Origin: a virus
Lineage: Duplodnaviria; Caudoviricetes
IMG/VR virus record: IMGVR_UViG_3300005259_000074
Span: 160,001-224,000 of that record
DNA: 64,000 bases
Reading direction: 5' to 3' (one strand)
Made by a program: the position numbers and the translations under genes. The notes under the pieces are model-generated. The model was not told where the DNA came from. It ran no database searches and was given only the letters and a program-made list of their open reading frames with translations. Below are positions 11,753 to 15,379 of the stretch, in pieces (positions within the stretch are counted from its first letter, which is position 1; each line of letters begins with the position of its first letter).

Positions 11753-11887
11753 TGGTGCCTATAACCGGTCTCACGACCAGTAACCCTCCCGACTCCTCGA
11801 CTGTTGGTCTAGCAGATTTACCATGGCACTCTGCTATACTCTGTCGCACCCTCGTTCGCGTGAAAGCAATCGATTGCTTTCCTAGGC
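11753..11887 (-). ncRNA. Multi-arm tRNA-like RNA ending in ACCA
   Basis: Acceptor GCCTAGG/TATAGGC-A-CCA with a T-arm-like hairpin and extra hairpins. Confidence 0.55.
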
Positions 11888-11908
11888 TGGCGCTTGACGT
11901 ATCAAGCG
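11888..11908 (-). ncRNA. CCA-tailed microhelix
   Basis: CGCTTGA-TACG-TCAAGCG-CCA. Confidence 0.45.
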
Positions 11909-11996: not shown

Positions 11997-12070
11997 TGGT
12001 ACTCCTTGAGGGTTCGAAACCTCGACCTCTTCCATGTCACGGAAGTGCTCTACAACTGAGCTAAAGGAGC
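11997..12070 (-). tRNA. tRNA-Val(GAC)
   Basis: CTTCC-GT GAC AT-GGAAG; 5' end overlaps the NADAR stop codon. Confidence 0.85.
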
Positions 12071-12501
12071 ATGAGATCGTTCTTGACTGTCCTTCTGATG
12101 TTCTTCCTTATCAGCATGATCATCTTACCTAGTACGTTCTTCCCAGTGCCTTTGCACTGGCTGCAATAACATACTCCCCAGCAGCGGTCGTGCCACGTGT
12201 TGCCTTCTTCGAGGTACTGATCGCCTGTGTCTAGCAACTTCTGCCTCAACACTGGGTCTCTGAACTTGTAGACCAGAAGTCGGTACATCACTCGGTACTT
12301 CTTGACTTCCCAGTCTGGAACCATTGAACAGACTTGACCTGCTCTCTTGGCTTGCCCTGGAGATGGGAGGTGAGCGATGTACTTCCTAGTCGAGGGACTA
12401 GATGCTTTCGCAGCTTGGTAGTAGTGCTCGATAGTCTTTCCGTTCGGGAACTTCGAAAAATTGGAGAGCCAACGAGTGTCGCCGCGAAATTCCTTGATCA
12501 T
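12061..12501 (-). CDS. NADAR (YbiA/DUF1768) family protein
   Basis: WLSNF, EHYYQAAK, M..L...KF....L...LL.TG...L.EGN.WHD..WG....GKNVLGK. Confidence 0.9.
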   Translation of the reverse strand: MIKEFRGDTRWLSNFSKFPNGKTIEHYYQAAKASSPSTRKYIAHLPSPGQAKRAGQVCSMVPDWEVKKYRVMYRLLVYKFRDPVLRQKLLDTGDQYLEEGNTWHDRCWGVCYCSQCKGTGKNVLGKMIMLIRKNIRRTVKNDLMLL

Positions 12502-12608
12502 CTCATCCTCTTCGTTTGAATTTTCCCGAGCTCCTTCGCGTCTATCCGGTCCTGGCAGGCGGCGACGTGTAGTGCCGCTCTTCGAGTCGAAGAAGGGACC
12601 CTCGAGAA

Positions 12609-12682
12609 TGGAGCACTGTGGGAATTCTGACATCCCAACTGCAACTTGGGAAGTTGCGGTCTTTCCTTTAGACTAACAGTGC
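12609..12682 (-). tRNA. tRNA-Gly(CCC)
   Basis: GCAAC-TT CCC AA-GTTGC; CCA end. Confidence 0.85.
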
Positions 12683-13761: not shown

Positions 13762-13837
13762 TGGCTCACTTGGCTTGATTCGAACAAGCATGTTCAGAGT
13801 TAACAGCTCTGCCTACTGCCAATTGTAGTACAAGTGA
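13762..13837 (-). tRNA. tRNA-Asn(GTT)
   Basis: CAGAG-CT GTT AA-CTCTG; G73, CCA end. Confidence 0.88.
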
Positions 13838-13975
13838 ATAAGAAATTAGACTGGTCGCTCTTCCGCTGAGCTATCGTGTACATTCTACTTCGTTAGCTGG
13901 ACTCAGTAGAAGTAGGTCCTCCGCGTGCACTCATCAGACCACTCACGAGTCGGATTTGAACCGACGTCTTCCAGT
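13838..13975 (-). tRNA. Circularly permuted tRNA-like gene C (3' half 13975-13941, then 5' half 13880-13838)
   Basis: CCAGT/ACTGG anticodon stem and CACGA/TCGTG acceptor pair only in permuted order; canonical D and T arms. Confidence 0.7.
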
Positions 13976-13996
13976 TGATGGTGTCTCTAGGGCACC
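13976..13996 (-). ncRNA. Minihelix ending A-TCA (CCA-like)
   Basis: GGTGCCCTAGAGACACC-A-TCA; near-identical hairpin recurs at ~14590-14606. Confidence 0.4.
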
Positions 13997-14080
13997 TTAA
14001 TGAGTGCGAGTGTTCTACCATTAAACTACCAGCAAGGTATTTCACTCGCCAGCTTGGAATCGAACCAAGACCTCTCGCTT
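13997..14080 (-). tRNA. Circularly permuted tRNA-like gene B (3' half 14080-14045, then 5' half 14035-13997)
   Basis: CTCGC/GCGAG anticodon stem; TTGCTGG/CTGGCGA acceptor; G73; 9-nt linker. Confidence 0.72.
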
Positions 14081-14114
14081 TGGTGGAACGCCGCTCTTTT
14101 CATAACCGCGCCCC
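14081..14114 (-). ncRNA. 34-nt Ala-type minihelix with ACCA end
   Basis: GGGGCGC...GCGTTCC-A-CCA with G3.U70 and A73. Confidence 0.55.
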
Positions 14115-14305
14115 ATAAATGCCTCGACACATTAGCCGCTATGCTACTAGTGCCAACAAATCCACTGAAAAGCATGGTTGTGTTGCAACACAGTTCTCTC
14201 CTAGAAGAGAACGCTCGTCAGTTTCATTGAGGTGTCGAAACGCGGTTGCAATCCGCTTTACGACCTATTGCACAAGTTGGGATTTGAACCCAACTCTTCG
14301 AGGGT
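14115..14305 (-). tRNA. Circularly permuted tRNA-like gene A (3' half 14305-14269, then 5' half 14153-14115)
   Basis: TCGAGG/CCTCGA anticodon stem; GCACTAG/CTTGTGC acceptor; 115-nt structured linker. Confidence 0.72.
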
Positions 14306-14381
14306 TGGTGGTGTCGGCGGGCAATGATCCCACAACTTTCCGGGTAAGAGCCGGATACTCTGCCAATTGAGTTACGACACC
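14306..14381 (-). tRNA. tRNA-Lys(CTT)
   Basis: TCCGG-CT CTT AC-CCGGA; CCA end. Confidence 0.88.
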
Positions 14382-14388
14382 TTGAATC

Positions 14389-14512
14389 TGGTAACGGACC
14401 TACATTTAGTAGTGCCTCATGGGCTATGTTGCCCAGCGTGCTGCCCCGCCAAATGTTTCTATCCGGGGCGAGGTGACGCAGTGATGGTTCTGCGCCTTTA
14501 CACCATTCCGTA
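14389..14512 (-). ncRNA. Multi-arm tRNA-like RNA ending in ACCA
   Basis: ACGGA/TCCGT acceptor, D-arm-like 5' TGGTGTAAAGG, three internal hairpins, degenerate T arm. Confidence 0.55.
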
Positions 14513-14588: not shown

Positions 14589-14940
14589 TGTTGGTGTCTC
14601 TAGGACACCATAAAGAGTCATCAGTTGACGCTCTCCGAGCGATCATCAGAGGTGGAGAAGTTTCTTAGACAGAGATGAATCTTGACGGGACCATTTGAGT
14701 TGGGTAAAAACCCACGTGAGGTCCTTCGTGGCACATGTCTGTCAGACGCCGGCTGCTCAGCAACCGACATCGCTCCTCCACCTCGGATGACCACTGGAAA
14801 GCGATCACCTGAGAATAATCCTCATTTTCAAAGAACGGTGCATGAGCTTTAGTAGCACGCATATCTCTCAGTCTGTTCAGCTAGCGACTTGCGCCTCTAG
14901 CATCTGAAAGCTCTCGCGACTCATGCTGAGTCCATTTTGT
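14589..14940 (-). ncRNA. Candidate ~350 nt structured RNA of unknown class
   Basis: TCATCCGAGGTGGAG/CTCCACCTCTGATGA long-range helix plus several local hairpins. Confidence 0.5.
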
Positions 14941-14942
14941 CT

Positions 14943-15216: not shown

Positions 15217-15379
15217 AAATGTGAATGAGATGTCTCGCGACATACCAGTTGCAAGCAACTGTCTCACTCATATTCAATGATCACCGGCTTCCGATCTCTC
15301 GTCCGCCTAATCCAATTATACACCACGTGGTGAAAATTGTAATAGGACTTTCGAAAAATCTTCGACCTTTCTTTCGAAC

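What the first reader, a model, noticed from the sequence alone, without database searches (positions are those of the whole stretch)
13976..14114. CCA-tailed minihelices punctuate the permuted units and could set their ends
Every permuted 3' half starts right after a CCA-like end: the real CCA of tRNA-Lys for A, GGGGCGC...GCGTTCC-A-CCA (34 nt) for B, and GGTGCCCTAGAGACACC-A-TCA for C. Every 5' half ends where another acceptor-like helix or tRNA-Asn begins. The 34-nt helix has G3.U70 and A73, the AlaRS identity set known to suffice for charging minihelices. A further microhelix-CCA (11888-11908) precedes the tRNA-like RNA at 11887. The hairpin before unit C recurs at ~14590-14606, just ahead of a tRNA-Met. 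Inference: RNase P and 3'-end processing of these mimics cut out the permuted tRNAs precisely, and the minihelices may be charged products themselves.
Basis: partly seen in the sequence, partly recalled or inferred. Interest (0 to 1): 0.8.

Follow-up and report, generated by a model that had tools for sequence, protein, structure and literature searches.

The report
tRNA-stub hairpins separating permuted tRNA mimics
In a jumbo-phage tRNA operon, short hairpins that look like tRNA acceptor stems sit exactly between three back-to-front tRNA-like RNAs; they are conserved in two related phages and probably mark where the long transcript is cut, though no RNA ends have been mapped.

Summary
On the minus strand, between tRNA-Lys(CTT) and tRNA-Asn, lie three circularly permuted tRNA-like units. 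They are separated by a 34-nt helix with an ACCA tail (P1, 14081-14114) and a 17-nt hairpin with an ATCA tail (P2, 13976-13996). A copy of the hairpin (P3) sits at 14593-14609, and a microhelix-CCA at 11888-11908.

Two related metagenomic phages (L029, L030) support selection on structure:
- P1 keeps its helix through compensatory changes and keeps ACCA in all three genomes.
- L030 has lost unit B and P2 together as one block, leaving P1-ACCA directly before unit C.
- In L029 the tRNA-Lys in front of unit A is replaced by a 6-bp hairpin with ACCA made of the same acceptor strands.
- Across all helices, 19 of 64 pairs covary.

- G3.U70 occurs only in this phage.
- P2 and P3 lack CCA.
- The 11888 microhelix is absent from both relatives.
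- Hairpin+NCCA motifs occur at chance frequency genome-wide.

The units look like YrlA-type tRNA mimics rather than decoding tRNAs. Their joined loops would be 8-16 nt and vary between genomes, and no CCA follows their acceptor strands.

Best reading, at about 0.45: reduced tRNA genes kept as processing punctuation. The cleavage itself is untested.

The parts
14306..14381 (-). tRNA-Lys(CTT) with encoded CCA (14308-14306). It is the acceptor-type helix in front of unit A.
   Evidence: ARAGORN and Rfam. The acceptor GGTGTCG/CGACACC shares its first 6 bp with the P2 and P3 stems.
14115..14305 (-). Permuted tRNA-like unit A. 3' part 14305-14269: head ACC, closing strand, T arm, acceptor 3' strand. 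Conserved 115-nt insert 14268-14154. 5' part 14153-14115: acceptor 5' strand, D arm, closing strand, tail GCATTTAT.
   Evidence: Closing, T, D and acceptor stems all covary among the three genomes.
14081..14114 (-). P1: 34-nt minihelix with a 7-bp outer helix, a 16-nt loop and an A-CCA tail.
   Evidence: Fold at -14.8 kcal/mol, z -2.8. Present with ACCA in L029 (2346-2315) and L030 (3002-3036). Two pairs change on both sides and two more change on one side among the three genomes.
13997..14080 (-). Permuted tRNA-like unit B. Its acceptor helix is closed by an 8-nt loop. Tail ACTCATTAA at 14005-13997.
   Evidence: The Rfam YrlA model aligns to exactly this topology at 18.4 bits, gathering score 69. 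Present in L029, absent from L030.
13976..13996 (-). P2: hairpin GGTGCC-CTAGA-GACACC with tail ATCA.
   Evidence: In L029 it is a perfect 6-bp hairpin with tail TACA. It is absent together with unit B in L030.
13838..13975 (-). Permuted tRNA-like unit C. 3' part 13975-13941, 60-nt insert with two hairpins, 5' part 13880-13838 including an A/U-rich tail. It abuts tRNA-Asn.
13762..13837 (-). tRNA-Asn(GTT). Its 5' end closes unit C.
14589..14609 (-). P3: second copy of the hairpin (GGTGTC-CTAGA-GACACC) with tail AACA. It lies between a conserved noncoding stretch of about 330 nt and a tRNA-Met-like gene.
   Evidence: The 17-nt hairpin (stem and loop) is identical in L029 and L030, and the tail is AACA in L030 but GACA in L029.
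11888..11908 (-). Microhelix (7 bp, 4-nt loop) plus CCA, between tRNA-Met-CCA and a 135-nt tRNA-like RNA.
   Evidence: It is a 25-nt insertion specific to this genome. In L029 and L030 the CCA of tRNA-Met directly abuts the same RNA.
15315..15343 (-). Promoter-like site, probably driving the transcript that carries all the above.
   Evidence: 10 of 12 consensus match. Conserved in L029 and L030. No promoter-like or terminator-like site on the minus strand between 14620 and 13838.

Best explanation
The hairpins are stubs of tRNA genes, reduced to the acceptor stem. P0, P2 and P3 derive from a Lys(CTT)-type acceptor. P1 derives from another tRNA, possibly Ala-like. They are kept as punctuation in one densely packed polycistronic transcript of tRNAs and tRNA-like RNAs.

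The three permuted units are closed by what would be the anticodon stem. They therefore have no acceptor termini of their own for the tRNA-processing enzymes to act on. An acceptor-like helix with a tRNA-type A/U leader on its 5' side and an (N)NCA tail on its 3' side supplies those sites. RNase P would cut at the 5' edge of the hairpin and free the 3' end of the upstream unit. An endonuclease cut, or trimming, at the tail would free the 5' end of the downstream unit.

Shown here: the helices, their positions, their conservation and their covariation. Inferred: which enzymes cut and where the ends lie.

The released units are most likely YrlA-type tRNA mimics (an elbow-forming core with an open 'anticodon' stem), not decoding tRNAs. 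The hairpins are not conserved alanine acceptors.
For: 1. P1 exists in all three genomes, with ACCA invariant. Its pairs change as follows: pair 3 G.U to A-U, pair 4 G.U to G-C, pair 5 C-G to U-A, pair 6 G-C to C-G. The G.U pairs place the selection on the sense-strand RNA.
2. In L029 a homing-endonuclease-like gene and a different tRNA-Lys(CTT) lie upstream. The old Lys acceptor survives only as GGTGTT-TAAC-AACACC-ACCA, abutting unit A, with a compensatory C-G to U-A change.
3. L030 lacks unit B and P2 together, so P1-ACCA directly precedes unit C. One helix per junction is kept. Run X2 holds a contig of about 90% identity that likewise lacks window 13986-14124 (P1, unit B and the 5' part of P2).
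4. P2 and P3 share stem and loop, so the hairpin was reused as a module.
5. P1 and P3 follow a TTAT leader, like about 10 of 29 tRNAs here. Most of the 29 tRNAs (about 23) end in an encoded CCA.
6. No minus-strand promoter or terminator lies inside the segment, so processing is needed.
7. The units are real folded RNAs: 19 of 64 helix pairs covary and only 1 is a non-pair.
8. Precedents exist. Plant-mitochondrial t-elements and acceptor-stem-like stem-loops serve as RNase P/Z signals (PMC1920247). M. smegmatis YrlA is cleaved by RNase P and receives CCA (PMC4201824).
Against: - No RNA ends are mapped. The public runs gave only contigs, some from other organisms.
- P2 and P3 have 6-bp stems without RCCA, which makes them poor RNase P substrates by established knowledge.
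- P2 in this genome has a C.A mismatch and marginal stability.
- P3 lies 5 nt before a tRNA-like gene that could itself supply an RNase P site, so it looks redundant as punctuation.
- The array is so compact (gaps of 0-16 nt) that 'starts right after a CCA' is partly trivial.
- The generic hairpin+NCCA motif is at chance frequency.
- Only three genomes are available, and flanking spacers are also well conserved.
Confidence: 0.45

Rival explanations
1. End caps or insulators rather than tRNA-type cleavage signals. RNase E (or another enzyme) cuts the A/U-rich single-stranded tails. The hairpins protect the new 5' or 3' ends from exonucleases, or keep neighbouring tRNA-like domains from mispairing.
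For: - Each hairpin is preceded by a 6-13 nt A/U-rich single strand, the usual context of RNase E sites by established knowledge.
- P2 and P3 lack CCA.
- P3 follows a long noncoding RNA and would cap its 3' end.
- The 3' strand of P1 can alternatively pair with the 5' strand of P2 (CACC/GGTG, read directly from the sequence).
Against: - It does not explain why ACCA is invariant after P1 and after P0 in L029.
- It does not explain why the stubs keep tRNA acceptor sequences and tRNA-type leaders.
- Unit C has no cap of its own on its 3' side in any genome.
Confidence: 0.2
2. Scars without function. The hairpins are what internal deletions and recombination left of tRNA genes in a fast-rearranging array, conserved only because the three genomes are close.
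For: - The array is mosaic, with tRNAs replaced, duplicated or lost between genomes.
- The 11888 microhelix is present in 1 of 3 genomes.
- Unit B and P2 are dispensable.
- Tails have decayed from CCA in P2 and P3.
- The motif occurs at chance frequency genome-wide.
Against: - Compensatory changes in P1 and P0.
- ACCA is invariant where present.
- A random deletion would rarely keep both acceptor strands exactly, as in L029 P0.
- The same hairpin has been copied to two sites.
Confidence: 0.17
3. True permuted tRNA genes. The cuts at the minihelix borders leave 3'-OH and 5'-P ends in the anticodon loop. A phage RNA ligase seals them into a circle, which is then opened at the acceptor stem to give working tRNAs.
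For: - The 3' half lies upstream of the 5' half, with matching stems, in 3 units.
- Elbow nucleotides are canonical.
- The genome encodes RtcB and two Rnl-type RNA ligase domains.
Against: - Joined loops would be 9/9/8 nt for A, 11/13 nt for B and 12-16 nt for C. They differ by indels between genomes and have no U33 and no conserved anticodon.
- No CCA follows any unit's acceptor 3' strand, although most of the 29 normal tRNAs (about 23) encode it.
- The acceptor of B is closed by only 6-8 nt.
- The acceptor of C has only 5 bp.
- The phage genome has no splicing endonuclease and no archease.
- No bulge-helix-bulge motif is seen at the junctions on inspection.
Confidence: 0.07
4. P1 is itself a product: a CCA-ended alanine microhelix charged by AlaRS.
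For: G1-C72, G2-C71, G3.U70, A73 and CCA are all present in this genome. By established knowledge, G3.U70 microhelices can be alanylated.
Against: Pair 3:70 is A-U in both L029 and L030. This genome also has G4.U69. There is no T-arm continuation.
Confidence: 0.04
5. P2 and P3 act as DNA palindromes, for example as a protein-binding or recombination site.
For: They are perfect inverted repeats without G.U pairs, so the strand cannot be told. The L030 deletion end lies at the 3' ends of the hairpins.
Against: They lie inside a transcribed tRNA operon, in tRNA-like leader/tail context. Their stem equals the tRNA-Lys acceptor. P1 clearly works at the RNA level.
Confidence: 0.05

Closest known systems
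Plant-mitochondrial t-elements and acceptor-stem-like stem-loops (and, more broadly, mitochondrial tRNA punctuation and the MALAT1 mascRNA)
   Same: tRNA-derived or acceptor-like structures sit at the borders of non-tRNA transcripts. They are thought to recruit RNase P on their 5' side and RNase Z on their 3' side to make the neighbours' ends (PMC1920247).
   Different: The present case is in a phage of bacteria. The elements are reduced to 6-7 bp hairpins, some with an encoded ACCA. They separate permuted tRNA-like RNAs rather than mRNAs. No ends have been mapped.
YrlA-type bacterial and phage Y RNAs (Rfam RF02553)
   Same: The permuted units share the topology of the YrlA tRNA-like domain: closing stem, T arm, acceptor-like hairpin, D arm. 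The Rfam model aligns to unit B this way. M. smegmatis YrlA is cut by RNase P and gains CCA (PMC4201824).
   Different: Scores are far below the gathering score (18-23 bits against 69). There is no Ro-binding stem. The phage genome has no Ro60/TROVE gene. Three units stand in tandem inside a tRNA operon, and A and C carry 115-nt and 60-nt inserts.
Permuted tRNA genes of Cyanidioschyzon merolae, green algae and Thermofilum pendens
   Same: The 3' half lies upstream of the 5' half, the break is in the anticodon loop, and the acceptor ends are linked by an intervening sequence.
   Different: No bulge-helix-bulge motif, no splicing endonuclease, non-canonical and variable loop lengths, no CCA or conserved anticodon.
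Minihelix and microhelix substrates of RNase P and AlaRS; the RNase P-processed C4 antisense RNA precursor of phages P1/P7 (from my own knowledge)
   Same: An acceptor-like helix with N73 and CCA, a G1-C72 pair and a U at -1.
   Different: No T-stem continuation. G3.U70 is not conserved. Activity has not been tested.

Membership tests
tRNA acceptor minihelix/microhelix (RNase P model substrate) | Helix of about 7 bp with G1-C72, followed by N73 and CCA | tested here: met
   Met for P1 in all 3 genomes and for P0 in L029. Not met for P2 and P3, whose tails are ATCA, TACA, AACA or GACA.
tRNA acceptor minihelix/microhelix (RNase P model substrate) | Coaxial T-stem-loop continuation (12-bp stack with a T loop) | tested here: not met
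   The P1 loop holds only a 3-5 bp inner helix, which is not conserved in this genome. There is no T-loop motif.
tRNA acceptor minihelix/microhelix (RNase P model substrate) | Cleavage by RNase P at the 5' edge | not testable with these tools
   This needs an enzyme assay or end mapping.
Alanine microhelix | G3.U70 with A73, as a conserved identity set | tested here: not met
   Present in the window, but A3-U70 in both L029 and L030.
t-element / tRNA punctuation | tRNA-like or acceptor-like structure located at the border of a neighbouring RNA | tested here: met
   All 8 unit borders in the three genomes are flanked by such a helix or a tRNA.
t-element / tRNA punctuation | Mapped RNA termini coincide with the edges of the structure | not testable with these tools
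   The public runs gave only contigs with no usable ends.
Permuted tRNA gene | 3' half upstream of a matching 5' half | tested here: met
Permuted tRNA gene | Joining gives a canonical 7-nt anticodon loop with a conserved anticodon | tested here: not met
   Loops would be 8-16 nt and vary in length between genomes.
Permuted tRNA gene | Bulge-helix-bulge motif and a splicing endonuclease | tested here: not met
   PF01974 is absent from the phage genome. No 3-4-3 motif was seen at the junctions by inspection. The host genome is unknown.
YrlA / Y RNA (RF02553) | Score at or above the Rfam gathering score | tested here: not met
   18.4 bits (window unit B) and 22.9 bits (L029 unit B) against 69.
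YrlA / Y RNA (RF02553) | Encoded next to a Ro60/TROVE gene, with a Ro-binding stem | tested here: not met
   No TROVE match at E<=1 in the 262-kb genome. The model's stem positions 1-22 and 89-114 are unmatched.

The most novel reading that the evidence does not exclude
The units are the first permuted tRNA genes outside eukaryotes and archaea. The tRNA-stub hairpins direct RNase P and a 3' endonuclease to leave 3'-OH and 5'-P ends in the anticodon loop. A phage-encoded Rnl-type ligase (or RtcB after end remodelling) seals them, giving circular intermediates and then working tRNAs. This would be a protein-ligase tRNA 'splicing' pathway in a bacterial virus.
Probability: 0.07. Interest if true: 0.9.

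Novelty: new variant of a known kind. Interest (0 to 1): 0.55.

Why it matters
If these stubs direct cutting, tRNA genes can be whittled down to a 6-7 bp helix and still serve as processing signals. That would show how a phage releases structured RNAs that lack tRNA-type ends from a tRNA operon. It would extend the idea of tRNA punctuation from organelles to bacterial viruses. It would also give a minimal, portable cassette for cutting RNAs out of polycistronic transcripts.

The finding also frames a set of conserved, covarying tRNA mimics in a jumbo phage whose role is unknown. They could be decoys for tRNA-binding enzymes or defence nucleases, or scaffolds for the conserved inserts.

Tried and rejected
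**Searches that found nothing**
- Near or distant DNA relatives in the phage collection: only a tRNA-Lys hit.
- Exact-pattern scans of viral contigs, metagenome contigs and genome contigs.
- Earlier scan notes on relatives.
- The DNA polymerase finds only relatives at 38% identity or less in viral contigs. NADAR finds nothing useful there.

**Public sequencing runs**
- Only Logan contigs were available. They give no starts, ends or strand, and show no tail-to-head joints for this phage.
- Several 'joints' are ordinary tRNAs of other organisms.
- Two 151-nt contigs identical to the window in a wastewater RNA library could be DNA or precursor and say nothing about processing.
- No habitat claim is made from the small shares.

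**Ideas dropped**
- Hammerhead-like CUGAnGAG strings in the inserts: no GAAA core and no Rfam hit.
- A Ro-binding motif in the inserts: not conserved.
- Hybrid readings (5' half of B with 3' half of C across P2, Rfam tRNA at 26 bits): the stems do not match.
- The ORFs at 14621-14862 as genes: single-base indels in the relative argue for noncoding sequence.

**Method limits**
- The MAFFT alignments of P1 were not in structural register. The pair counts were therefore made by script from explicit strands rather than with the pair-count tool.
- The whole-region MFE folds do not reproduce the cloverleaf cores, as is usual for tRNAs.

Full report
**Setting**

The window is bases 160001-224000 of a 262,470-bp virus record. 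A minus-strand tRNA array runs from 15454 to 9898. It holds 20 ARAGORN tRNAs, and the genome has 29 in total. Rfam adds a few more. A promoter-like site at 15343-15315 is conserved in relatives. No promoter-like or terminator-like site lies on the minus strand between 14620 and 13838. The elements below are therefore most likely parts of one precursor transcript.

**What is there**

The 468 nt between tRNA-Lys(CTT) (14381-14306, encoded CCA) and tRNA-Asn (13837-13762) hold three units. In each, the 3' part of a tRNA (anticodon-stem 3' strand, variable loop, T arm, acceptor 3' strand) comes before the 5' part (acceptor 5' strand, D arm, anticodon-stem 5' strand).

Joining the cognate parts in silico gives ARAGORN cloverleaves for A, B and C. 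Of the six non-cognate pairings within this genome, five give none.

- Between A and B lies P1 (14114-14081): a 7-bp helix, a 16-nt loop and an ACCA tail.
- Between B and C lies P2 (13996-13976): GGTGCC-CTAGA-GACACC with tail ATCA.
- The same hairpin with a perfect stem (P3) lies at 14609-14593 before a tRNA-Met-like gene.
- A 7-bp microhelix plus CCA lies at 11908-11888.

P1 is a strong hairpin (-14.8 kcal/mol, 0 of 200 shuffles as good). P2 in this genome is weak (-4.5 kcal/mol, 27 of 200). A loosely defined hairpin plus N-CCA is not enriched in the genome: 264 found against 263.6 in shuffles. The motif alone therefore proves nothing.

**Relatives**

DNA searches of the public collections found nothing. 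Two syntenic contigs were reached through neighbouring proteins:
- L029, an ENA scaffold of 5.6 kb whose neighbouring-gene product (P0003) is 68% identical to the window's.
- L030, a JGI contig of 10.7 kb whose NADAR protein is 92% identical.

One sequencing run (X2) holds a contig of about 90% identity to the window that, like L030, lacks window 13986-14124.

The layouts are:

| Genome | Order of elements |
|---|---|
| Window | Lys-CCA, A, P1-ACCA, B, P2-ATCA, C, Asn |
| L029 | endonuclease-like gene, P0-ACCA, A, P1-ACCA, B, P2-TACA, C, Asn |
| L030 | Lys-CCA, A, P1-ACCA, C, Asn, with no B and no P2 |

P3 is identical in all three. The 11888 microhelix is absent from both relatives. There the CCA of tRNA-Met directly abuts the same downstream 135-nt tRNA-like RNA.

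**Selection on structure**

Counting explicit strands, 19 of 64 helix pairs show a change on both sides that keeps the pair. Only one position is a non-pair.

For P1, the window compared with L029 and L030 shows:
- pair 3: G.U to A-U
- pair 4: G.U (window, L029) to G-C (L030)
- pair 5: C-G to U-A
- pair 6: G-C to C-G

The ACCA tail and the following A never change. The G.U pairs show that the sense-strand RNA is what is kept.

P0 in L029 is made of the two acceptor strands of the Lys(CTT) gene that precedes unit A in the other two genomes. They are joined by a 4-nt loop, with one compensatory change and the ACCA intact. A random deletion would seldom leave that.

L030 lost B and P2 together, with the deletion ends at the 3' ends of two hairpins. 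One helix per junction remains.

**What the units are**

They keep the elbow-forming nucleotides and all four stems, so they fold like tRNA. They do not look like genes for decoding tRNAs, for these reasons:
- If the ends at the hairpin borders were joined, the loop would be 9, 9 and 8 nt for A; 11 and 13 nt for B; and 12-16 nt for C.
- These loops differ by indels between genomes and have no U33 and no conserved anticodon.
- None of the acceptor 3' strands is followed by CCA, although most of the 29 normal tRNAs (about 23) encode it.
- The acceptor helix of B is closed by only 6-8 nt, and that of C has 5 bp.

The Rfam YrlA model aligns to unit B in just this topology, but far below threshold: 18.4 bits here and 22.9 bits in L029, against a gathering score of 69. 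YrlA RNAs are tRNA mimics encoded next to Ro60, and the M. smegmatis RNA is cut by RNase P and gains CCA (PMC4201824).

This genome has no TROVE gene, no splicing endonuclease and no archease. It does have RtcB and two Rnl-type ligase domains. I therefore file the units as working like YrlA-type mimics without being members of that family.

**How the hairpins most likely work**

A unit closed by its 'anticodon' stem offers no acceptor end to the tRNA-processing enzymes. Each hairpin supplies one.

P1 and P3 follow a TTAT leader, as about ten true tRNAs here do. P1 has U-1, G1-C72, A73 and CCA, the format of tRNA-Phe in the same operon. RNase P cutting at the 5' edge would free the upstream unit. 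A cut or trimming at the tail would free the downstream unit, and would also free tRNA-Lys from a 190-nt structured trailer.

Plant-mitochondrial t-elements and acceptor-like stem-loops are the nearest precedent (PMC1920247).

This step is inference. I give it about 0.45. The main rivals are end caps with RNase E cutting the A/U-rich tails (0.2) and functionless scars (0.17).

**What is not supported**

- The alanine identity of P1 is peculiar to this genome: the relatives have A3-U70.
- P2 and P3 have no CCA.
- The 11888 microhelix is an insertion found only in this genome.
- The compactness of the array (gaps of 0-16 nt) makes 'begins right after a CCA' partly trivial.
- No RNA ends could be obtained.

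**Verdict**

This is a new variant of tRNA-type punctuation, set among conserved permuted tRNA mimics in a jumbo phage. Earlier notes of this scan flagged the same stretch (permuted units, alanine microhelix). I tested those claims independently here.

Noticed in passing
window 14154-14268 (-): The 115-nt insert that closes the acceptor of unit A is the best-conserved part of the whole segment in all three genomes. It includes 26-nt and 36-nt runs that are identical between this window and L029. Its hairpins covary: G-C to A-U and U-A to C-G in L030. It is probably a functional RNA element in its own right.
   Followed up: partly
window 11753-11887 (-): A 135-nt RNA with paired ends (GCCTA...TAGGC) and an ACCA tail, conserved in L029 and L030. 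It always starts right after a CCA. It fits no Rfam family.
   Followed up: partly
window 14389-14512 (-): A second tRNA-like RNA of about 124 nt ending in ACCA, between the tRNA-Met-like gene and tRNA-Lys(CTT). It aligns well with L029 and L030.
   Followed up: no
window 14610-14942 (-): A noncoding stretch of about 330 nt, highly conserved in L029 and L030. Single-base indels in the 90% relative rule out the small ORFs there. It has no Rfam match.
   Followed up: partly
G000:C1:254539-254708 (-), outside the window: The 170-nt gap between tRNA-Pro and tRNA-Cys in the second array holds two CCA-ended tRNA-like genes that ARAGORN misses. One is Arg(CCT)-like with an odd T loop, the other has a long extra arm.
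   Followed up: no
L029:2557-3399 (-); L030:240-1424 (+): Mobile genes sit at the array in the relatives. A DUF559 endonuclease-like gene is inserted between tRNA-Lys(CTT) and the P0 hairpin in L029. A TnpB-like (Cas12f1-like_TNB) gene lies upstream of the array in L030.
   Followed up: no
G000:C1:24912-27004 (-), outside the window: RtcB (373 bits) lies next to an Rnl2-type RNA ligase domain protein. A second RNA_ligase domain is at 246934-247383. Together these form an RNA repair set in a phage that carries about 30 tRNAs.
   Followed up: partly
window 12061-12633 (-): A NADAR-domain gene lies inside the tRNA array. It is 92% identical in L030 and absent from L029.
   Followed up: partly
window 13940-13881 (-): The insert of unit C holds two conserved hairpins. 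The first reads GGTCYGAWGAGTGCAC..., which recalls the GGUCCGAAG strand of metazoan Y RNAs in L029 but not in this genome. This is probably coincidence.
   Followed up: partly
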